A DNA stretch of 64,000 nt from Alphaproteobacteria bacterium (GCA_965178295.1 CBCXTT010000003.1:24114-88113), one strand, 5' to 3'. Counted from the first letter of the stretch, positions 1 through 25,015 are shown. The notes: generated from the letters alone by a model not told the origin. Numbers and translations are program-made.

Positions 1-1283
1 GTTTGAAGATATGTTTTGATCTCATCGCCAGTCATAAAACTGCCAATCTTGTCGCGCATAATACACTTAATATAGTGCGCAAACCTAGACGCTGCAAGCA
101 TATAGGTGAGTCGAGCAGAAATATTGGCATTAGAATTTGCCTCAGCCGTATTGTATATCTTCGGCTTTTGCGTTGTTTGTGCACCAAAGAACGCCGCTTT
201 GTCTGTTGCCTTTTCGTGACAGAGCGCGATAAACCCGAGATCACTTAACTCTTTTTCACGACGGTCCGTAATCGCGATTTCAGTTGGACATTTAAGGGCA
301 ATATCGCCATCTGTTGTGTGGAAAGTATAAACCGGTAGATCTTCAACCAAGCCACCGCCTTCAACACCACGAATCGCTGCAGTCCATCCAAACTCGAAGA
401 ATGCATTGGTAATACGTTGTCCTAACATGTAGCATGCGTTTGTCCATGTGAACGTGTTTTCCGTAGCGCCGTCAACAGTCTCTGTGTAAGCTAGACCTTC
501 AACCGGGTTGGTATCTGGACCGTATGGCTCACGAATCAAAACCCGTGGTAGCGTCATGATCATATAGCGAGAATCTTCTGTCTCACGGAAAGAGTTCCAC
601 TTTATTTTATCAAGTGAGTCAAACAAACTTGCAAGATCTCGTGGTTTCCCAAGATCTGTGAAGGCCTTCAAGTTAAACATGGAAGGATCTGGCGCCGTGA
701 TCATGGGAGCGTGTGCCGCTGCCGCTACGTTGGACAACTTTGAAACAATCTCCATGTCTGCAGGTGTCGGCTTAAAGTAGTAATCGGCAAGCAAACAAGA
801 ATAAGGGTGCCCACCAAACGTACCATACTCTTCTTCATATATGTGCTTAAAGAGTGTGCTTTGGTCAAATTCAACTGCTTTTTCAAGGTCGTCAGCAATT
901 TCTTGCTTGGAGGCGTTGAACAGACGAATTTTAAGCTCGGTACCGGTTTCTGTGTTCATTACGAGATAGTTAAGCCCGCGCCACGATCCTTCAAGTGCCC
1001 GGAATTTATCATGATGCAGTATTTCATCTAGTTGTTGGCCCAAAAGATTATCAATTTCTTGAATTTTTTGATTTATAAATGCAACAGCATCATTGCTCAC
1101 AACCCCACCTTGTGTATTCAAGACCTCTTGTACGAACGTGGAAACCAGATCTTTTGCGTACACTTCTTGAGATGGATCATGGACCAAGTTTCCTTGGGTT
1201 AAGATTGTGTCTAAAATTCCACCCGTTGGTGCAGCAGCCCCACCTTTTGCAGGTGTAGTTGGTGTCTGTGTTTGATCAGCCAT
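1..1283 (-). CDS. tssC: Type VI secretion sheath large subunit TssC/VipB, N-terminal ~427 aa; the gene runs off the left edge of the window
   Basis: Manual reverse-complement translation from ATG (complement of 1281-1283) gives MADQTQTPTT...LPRVLIREPYGPD...GGLVEDLPVYTFHT...ARLTYMLAASRFAHYIKCIMRDKIGSF, which is diagnostic of the TssC family. No stop in the window explains its absence from the ORF track. Confidence 0.9.
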   Translation of the reverse strand, partial: MADQTQTPTTPAKGGAAAPTGGILDTILTQGNLVHDPSQEVYAKDLVSTFVQEVLNTQGGVVSNDAVAFINQKIQEIDNLLGQQLDEILHHDKFRALEGSWRGLNYLVMNTETGTELKIRLFNASKQEIADDLEKAVEFDQSTLFKHIYEEEYGTFGGHPYSCLLADYYFKPTPADMEIVSKLSNVAAAAHAPMITAPDPSMFNLKAFTDLGKPRDLASLFDSLDKIKWNSFRETEDSRYMIMTLPRVLIREPYGPDTNPVEGLAYTETVDGATENTFTWTNACYMLGQRITNAFFEFGWTAAIRGVEGGGLVEDLPVYTFHTTDGDIALKCPTEIAITDRREKELSDLGFIALCHEKATDKAAFFGAQTTQKPKIYNTAEANSNANISARLTYMLAASRFAHYIKCIMRDKIGSFMTGDEIKTYLQ

Positions 1284-1310: not shown

Positions 1311-1876
1311 TTATGATTTTTTAGGTGGTGACGATGGTTTTGCATCCCCACCTGCTGCAGCACTACTTCCTGCTGGTGCAGCCCCAATATTAAGGGACTT
1401 CTTCAATTGATTTTGCGTGTCTGTGTTGGACAGCACATCTGTAAGTAACGTGTCCAAAGTATCGTTTCCATCTAATTTTGTCATCAAATCATTGAGCTGT
1501 GTGCGCATCTGGTAGAGCTTATTCATTGCAGGGATTTTCTTGATCACGTTTATAGGATCAAAATCATCAATGCTTTGGAATTCGAGCAACAAATTAAGTT
1601 GCGTATCGTCATCTGTTAATTTGTTGTCCACTTTGAATGCGAGGCGTGGCCGTTGTTTTGCCATAATAACATTAAAATTATCACGATCAATTTCAGCAAA
1701 TTTACGTTTTTTTACGGAGTCCATCGGGTTGTCAGGATCGCGATCCCCTGAAAGGTCTGAAATGACACCTACGACAAAGGGTAATTCTTTCATTTCAATT
1801 GCATCACCAATCTCTACATCATAAGTGATGTGTACACGTGGTGGACGGACTTTGTCCAGTAAGTGTTGAGTCTCCA
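1311..1876 (-). CDS. tssB: Type VI secretion sheath small subunit TssB/VipA
   Basis: The ORF track gives 1311..1898 from a GTG. The family-typical start METQHLLDKVRPPRVHITYDVEIGDAIEMKELPFVVGVISDLSG is at the ATG (complement of 1874-1876), preceded by AGGGAG. It lies immediately upstream of tssC as expected. The C-terminus carries an extra Ala/Gly/Ser/Pro-rich tail. Confidence 0.85.
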
Positions 1877-2174
1877 TTTTGATAACTCCCTGTTGCACAC
1901 TTGTTATTAACTTAACTTAACTTAAAACAAGGATGGCATGTTTTTTTTTACTTGTCAAAGGGGGAAGTGGAAGATTTTTTTATAAAAGGTAGGGATAACA
2001 GATAGAACGCTACAGCTATTGTTTAAAATACATATATTCCAAATAATTACATTTGCTCTATTAGGGAAACATATATGCAAAAAAGTATGCTGTGCGTTCT
2101 TCTATCCTTTTCATTTTTAACCTACCGGGTTACAATAGCATGTTGACCAATATATAGCTTGATGAGAGACCGAG

Positions 2175-2837
2175 ATGGGCATACGTTATCCAGAATTTGT
2201 AGAGAATCCAGAAAATCGCTGTCCAGTGATTTTGTTACTTGATACATCCGCATCCATGGCCGGTGATCCTATAATGGCGTTAAATGCAGGGCTTGCAAAT
2301 TTTAAATTTGATGTCGAACACGATGAATTAGCGCTGCTGAGGGTAGAGGTTGCAATTATAACGTTTGGGACAGAGGTGTCTATACTGCAAGATTTTACCA
2401 CGATTGATAACTTTACAGCACCCCAGTTGGACGCCGAGGGTAAAACACCCCTCGGCCACGCTTTGAAAACAGGGCTGGCGCTACTTGAGAAGCGCAAAAA
2501 AATCTATCGTGAGGTGGGTGTGCAGTATTATAGGCCATGGATATTTTTGATTACAGACGGCGCGCCCACAGACGTATGGGAGCAAGCTGCAACCAATATT
2601 CATCAAGCTGAAGCAGAGAATAAACTGAGTTTTTTTACGATTGCTGTTGAGGGTGCGGATATGGAGATATTGCAGCAGGTGGCACCACCGTCACGCCCAC
2701 CGTTTACGCTTCGAGATCTGGCCTTTGATGCCTTGTTTCGCTGGCTATCGGCATCGGTTCGACGTGTTTCTACGGGGACAGTTGGGGGTGATATGGTGGC
2801 CTTGCCAGCAGTTTCAAGCTGGGCTGTGGCACGCTGA
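2175..2837 (+). CDS. Free-standing von Willebrand factor A (vWA) domain protein, TerY-like, cytoplasmic
   Basis: MIDAS motif LLLDTSASM (DxSxS) plus downstream ITFGT and LITDG elements. No TM or signal peptide. First gene of a plus-strand cluster divergent from tssB. Confidence 0.8.
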   Translation: MGIRYPEFVENPENRCPVILLLDTSASMAGDPIMALNAGLANFKFDVEHDELALLRVEVAIITFGTEVSILQDFTTIDNFTAPQLDAEGKTPLGHALKTGLALLEKRKKIYREVGVQYYRPWIFLITDGAPTDVWEQAATNIHQAEAENKLSFFTIAVEGADMEILQQVAPPSRPPFTLRDLAFDALFRWLSASVRRVSTGTVGGDMVALPAVSSWAVAR

Positions 2838-2851
2838 ACGGAGATCTAGTC

Positions 2852-3568
2852 GTGTGGTATATTGGGCATAGTGTGTCGGGAAAGAAAAGAGCACCAGGCA
2901 CTTGTCAAGATGTGTTAAGAGTCATGACCTGTGACCAACAAGTGGTTGCGGTATTATCTGACGGCGCAGGGAGCGCGGCACATGGTGGATTGGGTGCAAA
3001 AGTTGTAGTGCAGGCGGCTTTCTCATTCCTTCTAGGCCAAAAAATGCCAGGCCTACCATTGTGTGAGATGGCCGATGACTTGATTGCGCATGTCCGACAG
3101 ATCTTAATGGAAAACGCACGCAGTGTTCAAGTGCCAATATATGCACTTGATGCAACAATCCTCGTCCTTGTGGCAAGTCCGTTTGGCTATCAGGTGTTGC
3201 AAGTCGGGGATGGATTTATTGTGATTCAAAGTCAGGGAGAGATTGAGCGCATTGGAGCACCGCAAAAGGGTGAATATGCTAATGAGACCGTTTTTATTAC
3301 AGAAGATGGTGCGCAACCTGCGCTTTATGATAGTAAAGTGCCCGTACACTACTGGGCAATATCTAGCGATGGTCTGGAGCCAGTTGCAATTGAGGCAAGC
3401 GCTGGAACACCCCATGCGGCTTTCTTTCGACCGTTTTGGGAGTATTTAGACACAACGCCCGATATTGAGGAGGCAAACCAGGAGTTGCATAGATTTTTAA
3501 CATCCAGCCCTCTTCAGTCACGGATCCACGATGATGTATCTCTAGCGATAGGACATTGGCATGCATAA
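2852..3568 (+). CDS. PP2C-family Ser/Thr protein phosphatase (PppA/TagG-like)
   Basis: AVLSDGAGSAAHGGLGAKVV and VGDGFIV motifs typical of bacterial PP2C (SpoIIE-like) phosphatases. GTG start 15 nt after the vWA stop. The 3' end overlaps the next gene by 8 nt. Confidence 0.8.
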   Translation: MWYIGHSVSGKKRAPGTCQDVLRVMTCDQQVVAVLSDGAGSAAHGGLGAKVVVQAAFSFLLGQKMPGLPLCEMADDLIAHVRQILMENARSVQVPIYALDATILVLVASPFGYQVLQVGDGFIVIQSQGEIERIGAPQKGEYANETVFITEDGAQPALYDSKVPVHYWAISSDGLEPVAIEASAGTPHAAFFRPFWEYLDTTPDIEEANQELHRFLTSSPLQSRIHDDVSLAIGHWHA

Positions 3569-6353
3569 GGTATATAAAGCATCGGGTAGTGCTATTGTGC
3601 TCAAGGCAATTCTTGCGCGTGGAGGCGAAGGAGAAATTTGGCAGACGGATAACCCAGACGTTGTAACAAAGATATATCATGCGCAAGAGGCGATGCCGCT
3701 GGAGAAACTGGAGACCATGATTGCATCACCCCCCCATGATCCAACAATGGAGGCTCATCATGTCTCGATCTCATGGCCGCAGGAAGTGATATATGATGTG
3801 AATCAAGTGCCCATTGGTTTTTTGATGCCACGTGTGTCTGGCTCTCTAACGCTCAGCAACATTTACAACCCTAAGTTGCGACGGAACAAGGCGCCTGGGT
3901 TTAATTTTTATTACCTGCATACAGCGGCCCATAATATTGCGGCGATTATGGATTCTCTGCATGCACGTGGATATGTTCTGGGCGATGTTACGACAGAAAA
4001 CTTTCTTGTAAATGATCGGGCTTTGTGCGCCCTAAGCGATACTGATTCTATGCAAGTTCCGCATGGTAATAAAGTCTTTCGGTGTACAGTGGGATCCGAA
4101 GGCTTTACCCCACCAGAGCTTATCGGACAAGATTTTTATGCAATTGATCGAACGGCATATCACGACCGCTTTGGTTTGGCTATTCTTATACATCTTCTGC
4201 TTTTGGGCAGACATCCCTTTACGGGAACATGGCCTGCAGGGGAGGAACCCCTGTCTCTGGATCAGGCGATTAAAAATGGAATATGGCCTTATGCTACGGG
4301 AAAGAGACTGCAACCATCCATGCTTTCTGTTTCGTTAGATGTGATAGCGCCTCCGTTAAAAGCAGCATTCTTGAGCGCATTTAATGGAGAACCGGAATTG
4401 CGACCGACAGCGGCTGATTGGAAAAAGGTTCTGAGTGCTGCACGGGATGATTTGAGCGCTTGCGCGAAAAATAGCAATCATTATTACGATCACCATTTGA
4501 ATACATGCCCTTGGTGCGCGAGAGCGGAGGAAATGGGCCTTGATATTTATTCTGCTGTTTCAAATGACGTCATTGAGCACAAGGTGCGCTTTAACAAAGC
4601 TGTAAAAACAGACGATCAACGCTTGATGACACAATTATGGCAAGCGCATGAAACACTTCGTGCAGATGCTGCGTATCTGAATTTACGCGGGAGAATGCAA
4701 AAAATTGATAGAGATGTTCGGCTTTTGGATCGATTTAAAGCAGCTTGTCAGGAAGGCGTAGACGATGCAGCGCTGTTCCAGATGATTGCAGATAATCCTC
4801 GTCTTGAGACGCTCTCTGCATTTCTCCATGAAAAAATAAATGGGCAATCATTGGCTGTATTTTTTCAACAGCTTGATGCTCGCCGGAAGGCAATCGTGCG
4901 TGCTCAAGATGCAATTCGCCTAGCTGATCAATATTTTTCAGCAGTCTCTGCAACGCCGGCTCATGAGCAAGCCATCATTGATACTTCTAGGGCGTTAGAA
5001 GATATTCTGGAGACGCAAGGGCGTGCTGTTCCAGGTAATATGAGCGCGCGCTGGGCTATAGCTAAACAGCGCTTAGAATCGTGGAGAATATTTCAGCATG
5101 CACTGGATAAAAATGATTTCACGCTGCATAAAACATGGGTCGTACACGCAGAAAAACTCAAAGGTTTTCTGTTTCCAGATGACGTTCGCATGCACTTAGA
5201 GCAGGTGCAAAAACAAGATAAAATTCATGCAATATTTATGTCTCAGATTCGCAAGCAACCTTATGAAGATGCAGCTTTGATTGCGCTATGGGCCCAATAT
5301 CCCGCATTTCAAAAGACAATCTTTGCAAAAGAAAAGGTGTTTCGCGATAGATCTATTGAAGATTTTGTGTCGGATGCACAGAAACGACAGTTTCTGCTGC
5401 CTCTTTTAGATCACGCTTATGCGACATCTGATGTACACGGTATTTTGAATGCCTGGGATAAAAATGTGTGCGGGTATCATCCAGACTTCAAAAAATTTAA
5501 AAGCTATGCAGAAAAGTCTTTTGATGCTCAAAAGCGCTGGCATAAAGTACGGCGCTACATCTTAGAAGATGATCATGTGCAGATTGTGACGTTGTGGCAT
5601 GATAGTTTTACTACTCAGGCTATGCGAGAAGGATTGGGGCATAAGGTGCGTAATAGCTTTCGCCATCAAGAAACGCGCCGTTCCTCTTTTTCGTCTATGT
5701 ATTTTCCAAGAATGCGATTGCTTGAAAATTATATAGATGTATTGTTTCCCTGGCCTGTTTTGATCGATAGAACAGAAAAACGTGTGCGCACATCCTATGT
5801 TGTGGGCGTGGCTCAATCAACGTATGCAACCCCAGATCTAGAGAGGTGCAAGAGTGCGCTGAATATGCGTTATATATCGGCGGATAAATGTGGAGAAATT
5901 GGCCGATTAATATTACCTAGAACAATGCCAAAACCCCATATATTTATATGGGCGGCAGATTTTACAGCAGGGGGGGTGAGGCCTATAGGTTCTCACTTAT
6001 ATGTAACACACAATCAGAACTTGCCAACGATATCATATGATATTTTCGTTCAATCCTTTTGGAAAAGGGGCCGTACAACCATTGGCGTGCATATAGATGT
6101 AAATCAGGATATGCATTTACCATCGTTAGACGTTGTTGCAACGCATGGTCGCTTCCCTATTTTTCAGGATCCAGAAGCCATTGTTCTTGCTACTCTGCCA
6201 CCGTGTTGTTTAAAGATGGGGGGGCGTCACAAGATTATGATTTCCTCGAAACATCCGATCGAACGTGATATGATATTTCGCCTACAGTCACAGGAGAAAT
6301 TTTTCATGGACAACGTGACATTCGTTTACAATAGGCCACAGAAATATGCATAA
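3561..6353 (+). CDS. Divergent Hanks-type Ser/Thr protein kinase (PpkA/TagE-like) with ~600-aa C-terminal region of unknown function
   Basis: Recognisable kinase subdomains in the N-terminal ~330 aa: GGEGEIW (G-loop), VTKIY (Lys), HARGYVLGDVTTENFLV (catalytic loop D...N), LSDTDS (DFG-like), GFTPPEL (APE-like), DRFGLAILIHLLLLG. Residues ~330-930 are helical with a CPWC pair and no family I can assign. No TM segment. Overlaps the PP2C stop in an ATGCATAA arrangement. Confidence 0.75.
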   Translation: MHKVYKASGSAIVLKAILARGGEGEIWQTDNPDVVTKIYHAQEAMPLEKLETMIASPPHDPTMEAHHVSISWPQEVIYDVNQVPIGFLMPRVSGSLTLSNIYNPKLRRNKAPGFNFYYLHTAAHNIAAIMDSLHARGYVLGDVTTENFLVNDRALCALSDTDSMQVPHGNKVFRCTVGSEGFTPPELIGQDFYAIDRTAYHDRFGLAILIHLLLLGRHPFTGTWPAGEEPLSLDQAIKNGIWPYATGKRLQPSMLSVSLDVIAPPLKAAFLSAFNGEPELRPTAADWKKVLSAARDDLSACAKNSNHYYDHHLNTCPWCARAEEMGLDIYSAVSNDVIEHKVRFNKAVKTDDQRLMTQLWQAHETLRADAAYLNLRGRMQKIDRDVRLLDRFKAACQEGVDDAALFQMIADNPRLETLSAFLHEKINGQSLAVFFQQLDARRKAIVRAQDAIRLADQYFSAVSATPAHEQAIIDTSRALEDILETQGRAVPGNMSARWAIAKQRLESWRIFQHALDKNDFTLHKTWVVHAEKLKGFLFPDDVRMHLEQVQKQDKIHAIFMSQIRKQPYEDAALIALWAQYPAFQKTIFAKEKVFRDRSIEDFVSDAQKRQFLLPLLDHAYATSDVHGILNAWDKNVCGYHPDFKKFKSYAEKSFDAQKRWHKVRRYILEDDHVQIVTLWHDSFTTQAMREGLGHKVRNSFRHQETRRSSFSSMYFPRMRLLENYIDVLFPWPVLIDRTEKRVRTSYVVGVAQSTYATPDLERCKSALNMRYISADKCGEIGRLILPRTMPKPHIFIWAADFTAGGVRPIGSHLYVTHNQNLPTISYDIFVQSFWKRGRTTIGVHIDVNQDMHLPSLDVVATHGRFPIFQDPEAIVLATLPPCCLKMGGRHKIMISSKHPIERDMIFRLQSQEKFFMDNVTFVYNRPQKYA

Positions 6354-7362
6354 TATATTTTCTAAATCATTGTGTCCGTACTGCTACAAGTCTTTTTATC
6401 CGTGGGAAAAAATGTATCGATGTCAGGCCCTGACGCAGGTATGCAAGCCTGTTGAAGATACAGTATATCATCGTCATTTTGGTACAAAAAAAATCATGGG
6501 GCATGTTGTGACACCTTCTATTCGAGGGTTTTCTGATTTGATGCGCTTTTTAAGCAAGGAGTTGGCAACACGTTGTACGAGCTGTGCATCTTTGGTGACA
6601 CAACCAATTTGTCCAGGGTGTCATGGGCATTTGCCTAAGCGACAAGGTAAGACACCTGTCGTACCTATTTTGCTTGCAGGAGCCAGTATTAGCGCTCTTA
6701 AAACGTATCGTTCAGCGCTTCTGCATCAACTCCAGGCGGCTGAAGGGCATATAGCTGGTATGATTGTTGAAGATTTAGCTGAGGGTGACGGCATTATTAT
6801 CTCTTTTGAGATTGCTCAAGGGCGGCGGACCAGGCTACCATGTTTTATCTCCACATTTCCGATGGTAACATGGAAGGACTTGGCGCGTCTCCCTCGTGCG
6901 TTTGATATAAACAAGTTATCTGGTGTGATCGCGGTATTGTCTGGAAAGGCGCTAGGTGATATAGGTCATCAGTATGCGATGACAAGCCTAAAGGCGTTAC
7001 TGGATGTGGCGGATGAGGAAAGAAGCTTTTGGCAGAAAACGCCACTTGCTATTGCCCTAGATGACATGGAAAAGTGGCAGGCTTGTGTTCCTGGCGGGAG
7101 TGTGCTGTGGGGGCGAGGTCAACATACCAAAGGGTATGACGTACAAGATGGATCCAGCGTTTCTGCTGAAGTGCGTGCCTGTTTTGGCTATTGGGCTGGG
7201 TTAAATGTACTGCAGTTTTTAAAGAAAAATTTTAAAACTTATAGTTTTTTTGGTATTTCAAAAGAGCGATATAGTACGGGCCGTGTTGCGCCTTATGCTC
7301 GTGTTGAGGATCCTTATTTTTGGCTGCTCTATCGGCAAAAAATACTTGAAAAAATGCTTTAG
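6346..7362 (+). CDS. Cys-rich double zinc-ribbon protein of unknown function (338 aa)
   Basis: N-terminus has CPYC...(~10 aa)...C...C and then C..C...CPGC, i.e. two zinc-ribbon-like Cys4 clusters in the first ~95 aa. The remainder is unassignable. Start overlaps the kinase stop by 8 nt (ATGCATAA), implying translational coupling. Confidence 0.6.
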   Translation: MHNIFSKSLCPYCYKSFYPWEKMYRCQALTQVCKPVEDTVYHRHFGTKKIMGHVVTPSIRGFSDLMRFLSKELATRCTSCASLVTQPICPGCHGHLPKRQGKTPVVPILLAGASISALKTYRSALLHQLQAAEGHIAGMIVEDLAEGDGIIISFEIAQGRRTRLPCFISTFPMVTWKDLARLPRAFDINKLSGVIAVLSGKALGDIGHQYAMTSLKALLDVADEERSFWQKTPLAIALDDMEKWQACVPGGSVLWGRGQHTKGYDVQDGSSVSAEVRACFGYWAGLNVLQFLKKNFKTYSFFGISKERYSTGRVAPYARVEDPYFWLLYRQKILEKML

Positions 7363-7457
7363 GCATTTTCAATGTAGTATGATGTTGTTACAATATCCTG
7401 GACTGGGCTATCTTCAGGCAGGGAAAGCGATGCAATATTGGAAGAGCGTATAGGAAT

Positions 7458-8303
7458 ATGATTGTTGGTCTGGTCGTCTTGACAGGCATTATTGTGGCTC
7501 TATCAGTATCTCTCTGGCTTAAACAGGATCACCATCAAGCTGCGCTCACACCGTATACAGTGTATTTTTCTGAGACCGTATCAGGCCTGCCTATTGGCAG
7601 TGCTGTAAAATATCGCGGCATTCGCGTGGGGTCAATTTCTGATATTCATATTCCTAGGAAAAATTCAGAATCCATTGCTGTAAGTGTGATGATTGATAAA
7701 AACACACCTGTTGGAATGGGGAGAAGAGCTTCTTTGCAAATGGCAGGCATTACAGGCGAGTCATATCTGGAGATTAGCGGCGCTGTCCATGATGACGGGC
7801 CTGTATCGCCTCCTGCTGGTGAGTCTGTTCCTGTTATTCCATCTGAAGAATCTTCTATTCAAAAAATTGTATCGACAACCCCTGCGCTTCTAACTCATGC
7901 AGATCAGCTGATTCAGAGAACCGCTACAGTAGTCTCGGTCGAAAACCGTGCAAAATTCTCAAAAATACTTGAAAATGTGCAAGATATTACACAGGCACTT
8001 TCAGATAGTCGGAGTGATTATAGCAATCTGATGTCAAATTTTCGTGTGATCAGTGAAGAAATGCGTACAACACTTCAGTCAATAAATGGCGCTATGGAGA
8101 GCCTAAATTTTGCAGGGAAAAATATTGATCATTTTGTTCAGGATGTGCGCCCCCATATTGCCAGTTTTGCAGAGAATGAGTTGCCTAACTTTGTCCTTTT
8201 AACAGATAAGCTTATGGCAACATTAGGTGATCTTAGGGACGTTTTGAGAACGATCGAGCCTAAGATAGAGTATTTTACCAGATGCGGGCGAAAGGAGTTA
8301 TAA
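7458..8303 (+). CDS. MCE/MlaD-family protein (single MCE domain, N-terminal TM anchor, C-terminal helical region)
   Basis: N-terminal TM MIVGLVVLTGIIVALSVSLWL. MCE domain signature YTVYFSETVSGLPIGSAVKYRGIRVGSISDI...AGITGESYLEISGA. Confidence 0.8.
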   Translation: MIVGLVVLTGIIVALSVSLWLKQDHHQAALTPYTVYFSETVSGLPIGSAVKYRGIRVGSISDIHIPRKNSESIAVSVMIDKNTPVGMGRRASLQMAGITGESYLEISGAVHDDGPVSPPAGESVPVIPSEESSIQKIVSTTPALLTHADQLIQRTATVVSVENRAKFSKILENVQDITQALSDSRSDYSNLMSNFRVISEEMRTTLQSINGAMESLNFAGKNIDHFVQDVRPHIASFAENELPNFVLLTDKLMATLGDLRDVLRTIEPKIEYFTRCGRKEL

Positions 8304-8309
8304 GCTTAT

Positions 8310-8924
8310 ATGAGATGGGTTTTACTATGCTGCCTACCCTTTTTCTTGACTGGGTGCGTTCATATCTTTCCGGAGCAGCCCTCTGGGGTGAAAACAATCG
8401 TCATTCGAGCGGAAGGATGTTCAGCGGTTGAAGGACCAGAGGTAGAATCGCAGTTAATTGTTGAACGTCCTACCACAAGCTCGGAGTTGGATAAAAATAT
8501 CATTGCTGTTATGGGTGAGACAGATACACTTCTGTATATTTCGGATACAGTTTTGTCCGATGACTTGACCGAGGTAATTGAGCGCGCGACAATTGAGGCT
8601 TTTTTGGAGAGTAAAAAAATAAAAGGTGTTGGAGGAAATGGGAGCGGTATTAGCGCAGATTATATTTTGCTGAGCGATATCGACTCTTTTGGTCTATACG
8701 TACCACATAAAGGCGCAACACCAGAAGCACGCTTTGAGATGGTAGGCCAGTTGGTGGATGTTAAAACGCGGAAAGTTGTTTCTAAAAAACGCTTCAGTGC
8801 GATGGTTCCCGTACCAGCAAAGACAGTATCTGTAGTTGCAAACGCACTGAATGATGTTGTTTCGCACGTGCTCAGGGATGTTTTGACCTGGGTGCTTTCT
8901 GCAGGGCATGTGGCGCTAAAATAA
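8310..8924 (+). CDS. Lipoprotein, likely ABC-transport auxiliary component (DUF330/PqiC/YmbA-like)
   Basis: Signal peptide with lipobox FFLTGC. ~200 aa, immediately downstream of the MlaD-like gene, as is typical for DUF330 partners of MCE proteins. Confidence 0.6.
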   Translation: MRWVLLCCLPFFLTGCVHIFPEQPSGVKTIVIRAEGCSAVEGPEVESQLIVERPTTSSELDKNIIAVMGETDTLLYISDTVLSDDLTEVIERATIEAFLESKKIKGVGGNGSGISADYILLSDIDSFGLYVPHKGATPEARFEMVGQLVDVKTRKVVSKKRFSAMVPVPAKTVSVVANALNDVVSHVLRDVLTWVLSAGHVALK

Positions 8925-10586: not shown

Positions 10587-11261
10587 ATGAATGATCTTCA
10601 TAAAAAAAAGCAGCATATTGCATCGCAAAAAGCTTTGTCGCGCAAGCGCTCTGTTCATTTAGCGTCAGTTTTTATTACTTTGAGCGCTGTCTTTGTTGCT
10701 ATTGTTGTATCTTGGCCGCATATTGTTCGTTTCTTTGCAGAGACGGATGATGCCGCTGCCCTCAATGCTTTCGAGCAAAATGTTATTACAGCGCAGTCTA
10801 AGGCTTTATCGCGTGTGAAACCGAGCGAAGTGCATGGAGCAAAGTTTTTTCATTCTGGGCCAGATAAAACGCTTATTACAATAAAATCTGAGCGAGTTGC
10901 GCGTCCCGAAGATGATGGGTCTGTGCATTTAGAACATGTGTCGGGGAGTGCGCAGCTTACGGATGGGAGTTCTGTTTTTATCACGGCAGATAAAGGGGAA
11001 GTGGTGCCGGATACAGCAGGCCACTTCTCGCTTGAGGGCAGTGTCAATATTATGCAAGAGCAGGGCCATGAATTGCTCACAGAGATGGCCAATATTGACT
11101 TTCCGTCACAAAAAATTGTCGTCCCTAATCAAATTGACATCATCTCGCCGATGGGAAAAATGAAAGGAGAAAGTGGTGTGATTGATTATAAAAATCATAC
11201 ATTGGCAATGGCTGGAAAATCTAAGATCATATTTAATAGAGAGAAAGGGAGCGGTCATTGA
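10587..11261 (+). CDS. lptC: LPS export protein LptC (membrane-anchored)
   Basis: 224 aa with an N-terminal TM anchor (LASVFITLSAVFVAIVV). Immediately upstream of lptA with a 4-nt overlap, consistent with the lptCAB arrangement. Confidence 0.7.
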   Translation: MNDLHKKKQHIASQKALSRKRSVHLASVFITLSAVFVAIVVSWPHIVRFFAETDDAAALNAFEQNVITAQSKALSRVKPSEVHGAKFFHSGPDKTLITIKSERVARPEDDGSVHLEHVSGSAQLTDGSSVFITADKGEVVPDTAGHFSLEGSVNIMQEQGHELLTEMANIDFPSQKIVVPNQIDIISPMGKMKGESGVIDYKNHTLAMAGKSKIIFNREKGSGH

Positions 11262-12067
11262 GCAAGATAATAGTGTTTGCATTTCTCTCTATGCTCTCAT
11301 GCTGTGTGGCATGTGAAACGATTGTCACATGTGACAATGGCCTCACAGTGTATGAAGCAGAAAATTATTTTACAGCTCACGGTAATGTGTCTGTAGAGCA
11401 TGAGCATATTAAAGCACGTGCGGATAGGGGGCGGGGCGTTGTCAGGCAGAATAAGAAAATGCGGACGGTAGAGACATTGAGTCTTGATGGGCACTTAGAG
11501 GTTGAATCGAACGGCCTCCATATTGCAGCAGACAAAGGTATATATGACCTACTACACAATAGGTTGACGCTGCACGGTAATGTGATTCGTGTTAACGCTC
11601 AGGATATAAGGGCGGAGACTCATGGGGAGGTGGTATATTTACCCAATAGATCTCTATTGAAAGGTCGGCAGCGTACAATATTGAAAAAAGATGACGCAAT
11701 TTTTTCTGGTGATAAATTTGATGTTGTATTTTTAAAGCCGGACTCTCGTGTGCAGAAACAAGCCATAGAAGATGTATCCTACATATATGTTCGCGGTGAT
11801 TTGACATTTTTTTGTGGTGAGGCTATTATGTTTGCGTCTCATGCTTTATACGATGTTCCATCAGACAAGATTTATGCGTTTGGTGAGGTGCGAGTGAGTC
11901 TAGAGACACACCAACTGGAGGCCCCGTTTGTTTTAATGGATCGATCCCAAGGGACAGTTGAGTTAGGCGACACTATTCCACAGGGTATGAAGGCACAATA
12001 TCCATATGTAAGCGCGTTGCATGCAGATTCCATGCATGAGCACGATGGTATTCGGGTGTTATTTTAA
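11258..12067 (+). CDS. lptA: LPS export periplasmic protein LptA (OstA-like)
   Basis: Signal peptide. OstA-like beta-jellyroll repeats (GNV motifs: AHGNVSVEH, LHGNVIRVN, AFGEVRV). Position between lptC and lptB. Confidence 0.8.
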   Translation: MSKIIVFAFLSMLSCCVACETIVTCDNGLTVYEAENYFTAHGNVSVEHEHIKARADRGRGVVRQNKKMRTVETLSLDGHLEVESNGLHIAADKGIYDLLHNRLTLHGNVIRVNAQDIRAETHGEVVYLPNRSLLKGRQRTILKKDDAIFSGDKFDVVFLKPDSRVQKQAIEDVSYIYVRGDLTFFCGEAIMFASHALYDVPSDKIYAFGEVRVSLETHQLEAPFVLMDRSQGTVELGDTIPQGMKAQYPYVSALHADSMHEHDGIRVLF

Positions 12068-12077
12068 ATAGAGGGCT

Positions 12078-12815
12078 ATGTTGATGATCAATAATGCACT
12101 GGCTTTAGAGCATATTGGGAAGTCATTTAAAGATCGGCCAGTGCTGCGTGATGTGAGCCTGTGCGTGCAACCAGGCGAAGTTGTAGGGCTCTTGGGACCG
12201 AATGGGGCGGGTAAAACAACCTGTTTCTATATCATGTCGGGTTTGATAAAACCGGACTATGGAAAAATAATTCTTTACGGTGAAGATATTTCGCGCCTGC
12301 CACTTTACAGACGATCAAGGCTCGGTATTGGGTATTTGCCTCAAGAAACATCTGTTTTTCGAGGACTGACGGTTGAGGATAATCTTCAGGCTGTTTTAGA
12401 GATTATGGAACCAGTACCAGAGAAGCGTGAATCGATGCTAGAAGATCTGTTGGGTGAGTTTTCCATCAGTCACTTGCGCCATACATCCTCTATTGCATTG
12501 TCTGGTGGAGAGCGGCGACGGCTAGAAATTGCTCGGGCATTGGCTCTTCAGCCCAAGTTTATTATGCTTGACGAGCCCTTAGCGGGCATTGATCCTATTG
12601 CAATCGAGGATATTCGTGAGTTAATCGGGCGCTTAAAGATTCATGATATTGGAGTATTAATTACAGATCATAATGTGCGAGATACGTTAAGTGTTGTGGA
12701 TCGCGCATACATTTTAAATGACGGCGTTGTTCTGGCTGAAGGCTCTCCGCAATCTATTGTGGGACACAAAGAGGTACGGCGTGTCTATTTGGGCGAGAGC
12801 TTTACCTCTTTTTAA
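12078..12815 (+). CDS. lptB: LPS export ABC transporter ATPase LptB
   Basis: Walker A GPNGAGKTT, ABC signature LSGGERRRLEIARAL, Walker B IMLDEP. Family-typical length (245 aa). Confidence 0.9.
   Translation: MLMINNALALEHIGKSFKDRPVLRDVSLCVQPGEVVGLLGPNGAGKTTCFYIMSGLIKPDYGKIILYGEDISRLPLYRRSRLGIGYLPQETSVFRGLTVEDNLQAVLEIMEPVPEKRESMLEDLLGEFSISHLRHTSSIALSGGERRRLEIARALALQPKFIMLDEPLAGIDPIAIEDIRELIGRLKIHDIGVLITDHNVRDTLSVVDRAYILNDGVVLAEGSPQSIVGHKEVRRVYLGESFTSF

Positions 12816-24937: not shown

Positions 24938-25015
<78 letters not shown>

What the first reader, a model, noticed from the sequence alone, without database searches (positions are those of the whole stretch)
2175..6353. Split TerY-like vWA / PP2C / divergent Ser/Thr-kinase triad
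The three consecutive genes encode a vWA protein with an intact MIDAS motif, a PP2C phosphatase and a kinase. The kinase retains catalytic Asp/Asn and Lys but has unusual G-loop (GGEGEIW), DFG (DTD) and APE (PPE) variants. All three lack TM segments. This matches the computationally described TerY-P triad (vWA + PP2C + STK) and not the membrane-spanning PpkA. Its function and substrate have not been established, and here it is physically linked to T6SS genes.
Basis: partly seen in the sequence, partly recalled or inferred. Interest (0 to 1): 0.75.

Follow-up and report, generated by a model that had tools for sequence, protein, structure and literature searches.

The report
T6SS-linked kinase–phosphatase–vWA–pseudo-GTPase operon
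Next to a type VI secretion gene cluster lies a four-gene operon: a metal-binding adaptor, a phosphatase, an unusual kinase and a dead GTPase. It belongs to a known but functionally unexplained signalling family, and its repeated placement beside secretion genes suggests it switches that machine on and off.

Summary
The three genes exist as described: vWA 2175-2837, PP2C 2852-3568, kinase 3561-6353. They are clear homologues of E. coli YegL (50% identity), PphC (32%) and YegI (34%), that is, a TerY-P triad. The "odd" kinase motifs (GGEG loop, D-T-D-S, PPE, zinc knuckle after the kinase) are hallmarks of the YegI family, and YegI is an active kinase in vitro.

It has two zinc ribbons and a DO-GTPase2-type core that has lost the Walker A, Walker B and NKxD motifs, so it is a pseudo-GTPase. 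The kinase carries a 600-aa tail: helical Trp-repeats followed by two FN3-like sandwiches (AF2 pLDDT 88).

The operon diverges from tssB-tssC. The same junction is kept in four other lineages, with kinase identity down to 31%, while the far flanks differ. Two related loci sit next to T6SS genes in other arrangements. Other relatives are not T6SS-linked, and three of them keep an active-looking GTPase.

Best reading: a cytoplasmic Ser/Thr phosphorylation switch that gates T6SS, analogous to PpkA/PppA/Fha but not homologous in architecture. This role is inferred. It is a new variant of a known kind, of moderate interest.

The parts
3..1283 (-). tssC (sheath large subunit), first 427 codons. The gene runs off the left end of the window.
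   Evidence: Pfam VipB E 3.6e-126 and VipB_2 E 4.6e-15.
1311..1898 (-). tssB (sheath small subunit). It is the first gene of the tssB-tssC-hcp-hcp-tssE-tssF-tssG-clpV operon seen in the related loci.
   Evidence: Pfam T6SS_VipA E 2.2e-51; NCBIfam TIGR03358 E 2.1e-50, above its cut-off. Operon order taken from L001-L004.
1899..2174 (.). 276-bp divergent intergenic region shared by tssB and the vWA gene.
   Evidence: Direct reading. The equivalent spacers are 184-293 bp in L001-L004. One promoter-like site on + at 2108-2136, but site counts are at chance level.
2175..2837 (+). TerY/YegL-type cytoplasmic vWA protein with a complete MIDAS site and an invariant C-terminal W-L-S-x-S-x4-S motif.
   Evidence: Pfam VWA E 2.9e-9. 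50% identity, E 3e-64, to E. coli YegL. Invariant residues in alignment A7. No TM segment.
2852..3568 (+). PP2C-type Ser/Thr phosphatase of the PphC/YegK type. Its last 8 nt overlap the kinase start.
   Evidence: Pfam PP2C_2 E 9.2e-35. 32% identity, E 5e-33, to E. coli PphC, with the Asp motifs aligned.
3561..4445 (+). Kinase gene, catalytic domain (aa 1-295), YegI/COG4248 type: GGEG loop, K37, D142, N147, D160-T-D-S, PPE186, D202, R281.
4461..4517 (+). Kinase gene, zinc knuckle (C301-x5-H307-x8-C316-x2-C319).
   Evidence: All four ligands are invariant in 15 homologues and align with E. coli YegI.
4566..5666 (+). Kinase gene, all-helical region (aa 336-702) with recurring hxxhW motifs (conserved W360, W577, W632, W679).
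5679..6329 (+). Kinase gene, two FN3/Ig-like beta-sandwich domains (aa 707-923). The gene ends at 6353.
6346..7362 (+). Fourth gene (338 aa). It has two N-terminal zinc ribbons (aa 10-33 and 77-93) and a DO-GTPase2-type core that lacks the Walker A, Walker B and NKxD motifs, so it is a pseudo-GTPase. Its start overlaps the kinase stop by 8 nt.
   Evidence: Conserved in L001-L004. hhalign against an Oryzibacter ZnR-DO-GTPase2: probability 99.2%, E 2e-19. hhalign of short forms against long forms: probability 100%, E 4e-66. 37 of 40 long forms hit Pfam DO-GTPase2. Motif loss shown.

Best explanation
The locus is a four-gene operon, two of whose junctions overlap by 8 nt. It encodes a soluble cytoplasmic reversible-phosphorylation module of the TerY-P / YegL-PphC-YegI family.

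**Components**
- A MIDAS-bearing vWA adaptor.
- A PP2C phosphatase.
- A YegI-type Ser/Thr kinase with a 600-aa scaffold or sensor tail: zinc knuckle, helical Trp-repeats and two FN3-like sandwiches.
- A zinc-ribbon pseudo-GTPase derived from DO-GTPase2.

**Proposed mechanism (inferred)**
1. The four proteins assemble into one complex.
2. The kinase autophosphorylates in its D-T-D-S loop, as E. coli YegI does.
3. It then phosphorylates a target: either a T6SS baseplate, sheath or membrane-complex protein, or the invariant Ser cluster at the C-terminus of the vWA protein.
4. The vWA MIDAS site and the pseudo-GTPase/FN3 scaffold dock the complex onto the T6SS.
5. The PP2C phosphatase resets the switch.

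The net effect would be post-translational gating of T6SS assembly or firing. This would be functionally analogous to the PpkA-PppA-Fha threonine-phosphorylation pathway, but built from a different, fully cytoplasmic kit.

**Shown:** the identities and motifs of the four proteins, the operon structure, and the conserved and recurrent T6SS linkage.
**Inferred:** complex formation, the substrate, and the regulatory role.
For: **Family identity.** vWA, PP2C and kinase match E. coli YegL, PphC and YegI at E 3e-64, 5e-33 and 3e-51. The catalytic and MIDAS residues are invariant. YegI is an active Mn2+-preferring kinase that needs its DSD loop (bioRxiv 10.1101/819920).

**Operon.** The PP2C/kinase and kinase/gene-4 junctions each overlap by 8 nt.

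**Linkage, first arrangement.** The layout clpV-tssG-tssF-tssE-hcp-hcp-tssC-tssB, divergent from vWA-PP2C-kinase-gene 4, is found in L001, L002, L003 and L004. Kinase identity to the window is 63, 38, 33 and 31%. The genes beyond gene 4 differ between loci.

**Linkage, other arrangements.**
- L012: clpV, a 1564-aa protein, a 265-aa protein, DUF4280 (PAAR-like), vWA, PP2C, kinase.
- L051: vWA, PP2C, kinase, pseudo-GTPase, a MORN-like protein, DUF4280, then after three more genes tssK, tssL and tssM.
- These two kinases fall in different clades of a rough NJ tree.

**Loss of GTPase motifs tracks the T6SS-linked forms.** All six T6SS-linked fourth genes lack Walker A and B at the expected position. 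Three loci with no T6SS gene in view (L009, L010, L052; L052 is only 8 kb) keep Walker A.

**Conservation pattern.** The vWA protein is the most conserved part, at 57-83% identity. This fits a fixed cellular partner better than a diversifying invader sensor.

**No effector.** No nuclease, protease or toxin gene lies in the operon.
Against: - No phosphorylation target is identified. No FHA-domain gene is seen in the parts of the clusters that I could read.
- Linkage is not universal. In the same kinase clade, L050 has the tetrad divergent from fliL-fliM and L011 has a stand-alone triad. L010 has the tetrad away from T6SS.
- 37 metagenomic loci with a related ClpV (38-71% identity over the best segment) contain no triad, and none of the 18 that also show tssB has one upstream of it. 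The module is therefore not a core part of this T6SS type.
- The five loci with the divergent arrangement probably descend from a single ancestral arrangement, so they are not five independent events.
- The window kinase has Thr in place of the catalytic-loop Lys that 13 of the 14 other family members keep. E. coli YegI, which is active, also lacks that Lys.
- Relatives of both the triad and the DO-GTPases are described in the literature as conflict or defence modules.
Confidence: 0.5

Rival explanations
1. The tetrad is an autonomous conflict or defence module (anti-phage or abortive-infection-type sensor). It merely shares a variable "conflict island" with the T6SS and acts on invader or host targets unrelated to secretion.
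For: - TerY-P-like triads are reported as stand-alone antiphage systems, and TerY-P triads accompany CoCoNuT restriction systems (PMC11090510).
- DO-GTPase systems, some linked to kinase + PP2C + vWA, are predicted conflict systems in which FN3 modules act as sensors (PMC7159879).
- The Oryzibacter homologue sits beside a T4SS coupling protein and an IS-type HTH gene, which suggests a mobile element.
- L010, L011 and L050 are not T6SS-linked.
- There are weak PADLOC kinase hits to PD-T4-6 and mad6.
Against: - No effector gene is present.
- The GTPase switch is dead in all six T6SS-linked fourth genes.
- The vWA protein is strongly conserved rather than diversifying.
- The window shows housekeeping genes to the right (SpoT, Mfd, topoisomerase) and no mobile-element genes.
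- The tssB junction is kept down to 31% kinase identity while the other flank changes.
- The PADLOC TerY model does not match the window vWA even at E 10.
Confidence: 0.25
2. The operon is a general cytoplasmic Ser/Thr signalling module, like chromosomal yegL-pphC-yegI in E. coli. Its substrates would be unrelated to T6SS, and its position next to tssB would be inherited synteny without functional meaning.
For: - It is clearly homologous to the E. coli chromosomal triad, which has no T6SS neighbour.
- The five divergent-arrangement loci lie in one kinase clade, so a single historical accident could explain them.
- Promoter-like sites in the region are no more frequent than in shuffled sequence.
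Against: - Two further, differently organised T6SS linkages (L012, L051) occur in other kinase clades.
- Counting the window, 7 of the 11 distinct loci with 16 kb or more of readable context (window, L001-L004, L009-L012, L050, L051) lie within 10 kb of T6SS genes. A T6SS cluster covers only a small fraction of a genome; that last point is my own estimate, not a measurement.
Confidence: 0.15
3. The module is T6SS-related but works on cargo rather than on firing. It would control loading or activation of a PAAR/DUF4280-associated effector, or the response to incoming attack.
For: In L012 and L051 the triad lies directly beside DUF4280 (PAAR-like) genes and large uncharacterised proteins that could be effectors.
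Against: - In the window and in L001-L004 the neighbour is the sheath/baseplate operon, not PAAR or effector genes.
- No effector is identifiable in the window.
Confidence: 0.1

Closest known systems
E. coli YegL - PphC (YegK) - YegI triad
   Same: All three proteins are homologous: 50%, 32% and 34% identity, E 3e-64, 5e-33 and 3e-51. The kinase shares the atypical G-loop, the D-[ST]-D-S loop in place of DFG, and the zinc knuckle after the kinase domain. Gene order is vWA, PP2C, kinase.
   Different: YegI is a 648-aa protein with two TM passes (bioRxiv 10.1101/819920; hydropathy control). The window kinase is soluble and 930 aa, with a helical-repeat plus double FN3-like tail. E. coli has no fourth pseudo-GTPase gene and no T6SS neighbour.
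TerY-P triad (Anantharaman, Iyer and Aravind 2012, as summarised in PMC11090510)
   Same: A TerY-like vWA, a PP2C phosphatase and a Ser/Thr kinase with a C-terminal zinc ribbon, in one operon. It has been hypothesised to be a metal-sensing phosphorylation switch.
   Different: [quoted passage not shown] No T6SS context turned up in the held library. Here the kinase has a long extra tail and a pseudo-GTPase partner.
DO-GTPase / GAP1-N2 systems with linked kinase, PP2C and vWA (Kaur et al. 2020, PMC7159879)
   Same: Gene 4 is a homologue of ZnR-DO-GTPase2. [quoted passage not shown]
   Different: That theme was reported as restricted to actinobacteria, with an active GTPase and a GAP1 partner. 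Here the hosts are alphaproteobacterial MAG-type genomes, the G1, G3 and G4 motifs are lost, no GAP1 was detected, no effector is present, and the neighbour is a T6SS.
PpkA - PppA - Fha1 threonine-phosphorylation pathway of the P. aeruginosa H1-T6SS
   Same: The same three domain types (Ser/Thr kinase, vWA, PP2C) are encoded in or beside a T6SS cluster (PMC3224232). The proposed role as a post-translational on/off switch is also the same.
   Different: PpkA is one membrane-spanning protein with an extracytoplasmic vWA sensor. Here the vWA is a separate cytoplasmic protein and the kinase is YegI-type with no TM segment. No Fha substrate was seen. The resemblance is functional, not family membership.
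TerY-P-like stand-alone antiphage system (Gao et al. 2020, as cited in PMC11090510)
   Same: A vWA + PP2C + kinase triad.
   Different: In that system the kinase carries a C-terminal OB fold. The PADLOC TerY model does not match the window vWA, and only generic kinase models match weakly.

Membership tests
TerY-P triad | TerY-like vWA protein with an intact MIDAS site | tested here: met
   Pfam VWA. D23-x-S25-x-S27, T91 and D128 are invariant. 50% identity to YegL.
TerY-P triad | PP2C-family phosphatase encoded next to it | tested here: met
   PP2C_2, E 9e-35. The Asp motifs align with PphC.
TerY-P triad | Ser/Thr kinase followed by a zinc ribbon | tested here: met
   Kinase residues and C301/H307/C316/C319 are invariant and align with YegI through the zinc knuckle. 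Only kinases are hit in the PDB.
E. coli YegI-type kinase | D-[ST]-D-S loop replacing DFG, and a non-HRD catalytic loop | tested here: met
   Window SDTDSMQ and LGDVTTEN, against YegI DSD and VGDxxQxS (bioRxiv 10.1101/819920).
E. coli YegI-type kinase | Two-pass membrane topology | tested here: not met
   Highest hydropathy is 1.33 for the window kinase, against 2.27 and 2.07 for YegI. AF2 models the tail as soluble helices and beta-sandwiches.
PpkA/PppA/Fha T6SS phosphorylation pathway | Kinase with a TM segment and an extracytoplasmic vWA domain in the same protein | tested here: not met
   The vWA is a separate 220-aa protein with no signal peptide or TM segment, and the kinase has no TM segment.
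PpkA/PppA/Fha T6SS phosphorylation pathway | FHA-domain substrate (Fha/TagH) in the cluster | tested here: inconclusive
   No FHA Pfam hit appears among the called genes of L001-L005, L012 and L051. The clusters could not be read beyond clpV.
PpkA/PppA/Fha T6SS phosphorylation pathway | Encoded within or beside a T6SS cluster | tested here: met
   Window and L001-L004 (divergent from tssB), plus L012 and L051.
DO-GTPase (Double-GTPase 2, PF19993) | Homology to the DO-GTPase core, with N-terminal zinc ribbons | tested here: met
   hhalign probability 100%, E 4e-66, against an alignment in which 37 of 40 members hit PF19993. CxxC pairs at aa 10, 77 and 89. There is no direct Pfam hit to gene 4 itself.
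DO-GTPase (Double-GTPase 2, PF19993) | Walker A GxxxxGK[ST] and Walker B hhDxxGE (active TRAFAC GTPase) | tested here: not met
   Both are absent from gene 4 and from 18 of 21 short forms, and present in 128 of 133 long forms.
DO-GTPase (Double-GTPase 2, PF19993) | Cognate GAP1 protein and variable effectors in the system | tested here: not met
   The operon ends after gene 4, and the next genes are MlaD and an ABC auxiliary lipoprotein. No GAP1 Pfam hit in the kinase tail at E up to 5.
Gao-2020-type TerY-P defence system | Match to the PADLOC TerY/TerY-P models; kinase with an OB fold | tested here: not met
   No PADLOC hit for the vWA, PP2C or gene 4 at E up to 10. The kinase tail is helical plus FN3-like, not an OB fold.

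The most novel reading that the evidence does not exclude
A clade of uncultured Alphaproteobacteria uses a fully cytoplasmic YegI-type TerY-P triad plus a pseudo-DO-GTPase scaffold as a previously unrecognised post-translational control pathway for type VI secretion. It would replace PpkA-PppA-Fha. This would give the first physiological output for the enigmatic YegL-PphC-YegI / TerY-P family and would show a conflict-system GTPase being recast as a dead scaffold.
Probability: 0.35. Interest if true: 0.75.

Novelty: new variant of a known kind. Interest (0 to 1): 0.55.

Why it matters
TerY-P / YegL-PphC-YegI triads are widespread and occur in E. coli K-12. Their kinase and phosphatase are biochemically active, but no substrate or physiological role is known. 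A sub-family that is repeatedly placed beside T6SS structural genes supplies a concrete and testable candidate output: sheath, baseplate or membrane-complex assembly. It also gives a short list of candidate substrates.

For T6SS biology it would add a second, architecturally different Ser/Thr phosphorylation switch beside the PpkA-PppA-Fha pathway.

The pseudo-GTPase is a clean example of an NTPase switch losing all its nucleotide motifs while keeping its zinc ribbons and C-terminal interaction motifs. That pattern suggests a change from switch to scaffold.

Tried and rejected
1. AF2 of gene 4 with a 5-sequence alignment gave pLDDT 36.7. It is unusable, so I ran no fold search on it. The GTPase assignment rests on profile comparisons.
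2. Fold search against afdb50 was unavailable.
The scan with gene 4 found only 3 loci. The window's own genome is not in that collection or in the gene index, so the organism could not be named. Relatives are labelled Alphaproteobacteria MAGs.
4. The metagenome scan with the L002 ClpV fragment did not return the L002 contig. I therefore could not read beyond clpV to check for PpkA, PppA, Fha, TagF or tssKLM in the tetrad-bearing clusters. It did return 37 related T6SS loci without the triad.
5. PADLOC gave no defence-system assignment.
7. I tested whether the kinase tail is a fused GAP1, and whether the Oryzibacter 732-aa downstream protein is related to it. Neither has any support.
8. Promoter and terminator scans were at chance level.
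9. A plasmid search found only kinase-domain-level relatives and none with the full architecture.
10. I rejected the "split PpkA" reading, because the homology is to YegI, PphC and YegL.
11. The held library yielded no paper that links T6SS with TerY or YegI.

Full report
**1. Observation**

Pfam gives these results:
- VWA, E 2.9e-9.
- PP2C_2, E 9e-35.
- A partial Pkinase match covering aa 118-227, at 27.8 bits, below the gathering score.

On the minus strand, tssB lies at 1311-1898 (T6SS_VipA, E 2e-51) and the first 427 codons of tssC at 3-1283 (VipB, E 4e-126). The window therefore begins inside a T6SS sheath operon that is transcribed away from the triad, across a 276-bp spacer.

ORFs of 220-930 aa with family matches are not chance.

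**2. The triad is a YegL-PphC-YegI (TerY-P) homologue**

I fetched yegL-pphC-(yegJ)-yegI from E. coli K-12. Pairwise BLASTP against the window proteins gives:

| Window protein | E. coli protein | Identity | E-value |
|---|---|---|---|
| vWA | YegL | 50% | 3e-64 |
| PP2C | PphC | 32% | 5e-33 |
| Kinase aa 3-344 | YegI | 34% | 3e-51 |

The kinase alignment runs through the zinc knuckle.

In an alignment of 15 full-length kinase homologues, these residues are invariant:
- G22, E23, G24 (glycine loop) and K37.
- D142 and N147 (catalytic loop).
- D160, D162 and S163 (the D-T-D-S loop in the DFG position).
- E186 (PPE), D202 and R281.
- C301, H307, C316 and C319 (zinc ligands).

Rajagopalan and Dworkin (bioRxiv 10.1101/819920) showed the following for YegI, which has DSD in place of DFG and VGDxxQxS in place of HRDxxPxN:
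- It is an active kinase that prefers Mn2+.
- It autophosphorylates on Ser, including the Ser of the DSD loop.
- It loses activity when DSD is changed to DFG.

The only PDB sequence matches, with the single sequence or with the family profile, are protein kinases.

The second test (a cryptic signal peptide or TM segment in the vWA protein) also fails. The highest 19-residue hydropathy means are 1.57 for vWA, 1.65 for PP2C (an Asp-containing core strand), 1.33 for the kinase and 1.2 for gene 4. The two published TM helices of YegI score 2.27 and 2.07.

One local peculiarity stands out. The window kinase reads GDVTTEN where 13 of the 14 other members aligned have GD[IVL]K[TSP][DE]N. The codon is ACG, one base from AAG. 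YegI (GDVNQNS) also lacks this Lys and is active, so the change need not abolish activity.

**3. A fourth gene belongs to the unit**

ORF 6346-7362 (338 aa) overlaps the kinase stop by 8 nt, just as the kinase start overlaps the PP2C stop by 8 nt. It has no Pfam, NCBIfam or PADLOC hit.

A gene of 321-362 aa occupies the same position in every related T6SS-linked locus. These genes align at 25-59% identity, with invariant Cys pairs forming two zinc ribbons and a conserved C-terminal EDPxxWxL motif.

*The link to DO-GTPases.* A genome scan with this family found a locus in Oryzibacter oryziterrae. There, vWA, PP2C and a 1257-aa kinase are followed by a 421-aa protein that hits Pfam DO-GTPase2 (PF19993) and has a canonical GPPGAGKT loop. 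hhalign of the gene-4 family against that protein gives probability 99.2%, E 2e-19, over the full length.

*The wider family.* A profile search of 1.84 billion cluster representatives gave 827 hits.
- Of the listed hits, the 133 "long" forms (365 aa or more) carry GxxxxGK[ST] in 128 cases.
- The 21 "short" forms, which include every close relative of gene 4, carry it in only 3 cases.
- 37 of 40 sampled long forms hit PF19993.
- Short-form against long-form profiles align at probability 100%, E 4e-66. The GAKxxGKS, FFDTAGE and SKxD columns are replaced by unrelated residues in the short forms.

Gene 4 is therefore a zinc-ribbon DO-GTPase2 homologue that has lost G1, G3 and G4. It is a pseudo-GTPase.

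AF2 on this protein was poor (pLDDT 37), so this assignment rests on sequence profiles only.

**4. The kinase tail**

AF2 with a 12-sequence alignment gave a confident model of aa 336-930 (pLDDT 88). It shows:
- An all-helical region to about aa 702, with recurring hxxhW motifs (conserved W360, W577, W632, W679).
- Two beta-sandwiches spanning aa 707-923.

The tail is homologous to the tail of the Oryzibacter kinase (hhalign probability 98%, E 2.7e-13). It is not related to the 732-aa protein encoded downstream in that locus.

This fits the description by Kaur et al. [quoted passage not shown] They reported that theme only in actinobacteria.

**5. Genomic context in relatives**

Full-length relatives are few, roughly 20 clusters at 28-63% identity, and are mostly from MAGs labelled Alphaproteobacteria. 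The contexts are:

| Locus | Kinase identity to window | Context |
|---|---|---|
| L001 | 63% | clpV... tssB, divergent from the tetrad |
| L002 | 38% | same arrangement |
| L003 | 33% | same arrangement |
| L004 (also L005, L007) | 31% | same arrangement |
| L012 | 35% over N-terminal 62% | clpV, 1564-aa protein, 265-aa protein, DUF4280 (PAAR-like), vWA, PP2C, kinase; no fourth gene |
| L051 | 40% over 46% | vWA, PP2C, kinase, pseudo-GTPase, MORN-like, DUF4280, SPOR, a 171-aa gene, GerE, tssK, tssL, tssM |
| L010 | 30% | tetrad with a motif-intact DO-GTPase2, among unrelated genes |
| L011 | 29% | triad alone |
| L050 | 36% | tetrad with the short form, divergent from fliL-fliM |
| L009 (Oryzibacter) | 38% (kinase domain only) | tetrad beside a T4SS coupling protein and an IS-type HTH gene |

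In L001-L004 the full arrangement is clpV-tssG-tssF-tssE-(two Hcp-like genes)-tssC-tssB, divergent from vWA-PP2C-kinase-gene 4. The spacer is 184-293 bp. The genes after gene 4 differ: MlaD, an OMP, or a pseudouridine synthase.

Further points:
- Counting the window, 7 of the 11 distinct loci with 16 kb or more of readable context lie within 10 kb of T6SS genes, in three gene orders.
- A rough NJ tree of the kinase domains puts the five divergent-type loci in one clade, together with L050 and L011. L051 and L012 fall elsewhere.
- 37 loci with a related ClpV (38-71% identity over the best segment) contain no triad, and none of the 18 that also show tssB has one upstream of it. One of these, L015, has tssA upstream of tssB instead.
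- Motif loss in the fourth gene tracks the T6SS-linked forms. The window, L001-L004 and L051 all lack Walker A and B at the expected position. L009, L010 and L052 keep Walker A.
- Conservation is uneven. Among these loci the vWA protein is 57-83% identical, the kinase 29-63% and gene 4 25-59%.
- The vWA C-terminus carries an invariant W-L-S-x-S-x4-S motif.

**6. Mechanism**

*Shown.* The locus encodes four soluble proteins from a tightly packed operon whose PP2C/kinase and kinase/gene-4 junctions overlap:
- A MIDAS adaptor.
- A PP2C phosphatase.
- A kinase of a biochemically validated atypical family, with a large non-enzymatic tail.
- A dead GTPase.

*Inferred, probability about 0.5.* They form a cytoplasmic switch that gates T6SS assembly or firing.
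1. The kinase autophosphorylates in its D-T-D-S loop.
2. It phosphorylates a T6SS component, or the Ser cluster of the vWA protein.
3. The MIDAS site and the FN3/pseudo-GTPase scaffold provide docking.
4. The PP2C phosphatase resets the system.

This would work like PpkA-PppA-Fha (PMC3224232) but is not a member of that system. The vWA is not periplasmic, the kinase has no TM segment, and no Fha was seen.

*Rivals.*
- An autonomous conflict or defence module sharing an island with the T6SS (about 0.25). It is supported by the literature on TerY-P and DO-GTPase systems and by the unlinked relatives. It is weakened by the lack of any effector, the dead GTPase, the conserved vWA and the retained tssB junction.
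- Generic signalling with accidental synteny (about 0.15).
- Control of PAAR-linked cargo rather than firing (about 0.1).

**7. Novelty**

The triad itself is a new member of a known family. Four things appear to be undescribed in the literature I could search:
- The four-gene form with a Walker-less DO-GTPase2.
- The soluble kinase with a Trp-repeat and double FN3-like tail.
- Occurrence in alphaproteobacterial genomes.
- The recurrent linkage to T6SS.

No plasmid in PLSDB carries the full kinase architecture. I rate this a new variant of a known kind, interest 0.55.

The main limits are these:
- No substrate is identified.
- The organisms are uncultured.
- I could not read the rest of the T6SS clusters.
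- The five identical arrangements are not phylogenetically independent.

Noticed in passing
window 3990-3992 (kinase codon 144): The window kinase has Thr (ACG) at the catalytic-loop position where 13 of the 14 other family members aligned have Lys (GDVTTEN versus GD[IVL]K[TSP][DE]N). ACG is one base from AAG. E. coli YegI also lacks this Lys and is active.
   Followed up: partly
window 2742-2774 (vWA aa 190-199): An invariant C-terminal W-L-S-x-S-x4-S motif is present in all 12 vWA homologues, including E. coli YegL. It is a possible phospho-acceptor cluster for the partner kinase.
   Followed up: partly
window 7458-8924: An MlaD/MCE-family protein and an ABC-transport auxiliary lipoprotein follow gene 4 after a 95-bp gap. 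This pair is kept only in the closest relative (L001), so it is probably not part of the module.
   Followed up: partly
L050 6114-12095: In one relative the same tetrad, with the Walker-less fourth gene, is divergent from the flagellar genes fliL-fliM instead of tssB.
   Followed up: no
L051 8280-22187 and L012 1-12832: Related triads sit beside DUF4280 (PAAR-like) genes and large proteins with no Pfam match (1564 aa in L012). In L051 there is also a MORN-repeat-like 344-aa protein, then SPOR, GerE, tssK, tssL and tssM. The large proteins could be T6SS effectors.
   Followed up: partly
L009 4720-15140 (Oryzibacter oryziterrae NZ_JAKJIC010000003.1): A cultured alphaproteobacterium carries vWA, PP2C, a 1257-aa kinase, a motif-intact ZnR-DO-GTPase2 and a 732-aa unknown protein. 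The set lies next to a T4SS coupling protein and an IS-type HTH gene. This looks like a mobile-element version of the system and a possible experimental handle.
   Followed up: partly
window 2108-2136 and 7366-7394: The same promoter-like hexamer pair (TTTTCA, 17 nt, TACAAT) lies upstream of the vWA gene and upstream of the MlaD gene. Overall site counts are at chance level.
   Followed up: no
window 2075-2146: By eye, a 23-codon ORF (MQKSMLCVLLSFSFLTYRVTIAC) lies in the tssB/vWA intergenic spacer. It is probably spurious. L003 has an unrelated 40-codon call in the same spacer.
   Followed up: no
window 10587-12815: Two ORFs with no Pfam hit (224 and 269 aa) lie directly upstream of an ABC ATPase gene. 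The layout resembles lptC-lptA-lptB, but I did not test this.
   Followed up: no
window 9341-64000: The rest of the window is core chromosome: a UPF0176/rhodanese protein, a Na/sulfate symporter, one tRNA-Met (24938-25014), SpoT/RelA, a topoisomerase IV/gyrase A-type subunit and Mfd. GC skew is positive throughout and almost all genes are on the + strand. There is no sign of a mobile island around the T6SS/tetrad junction.
   Followed up: partly
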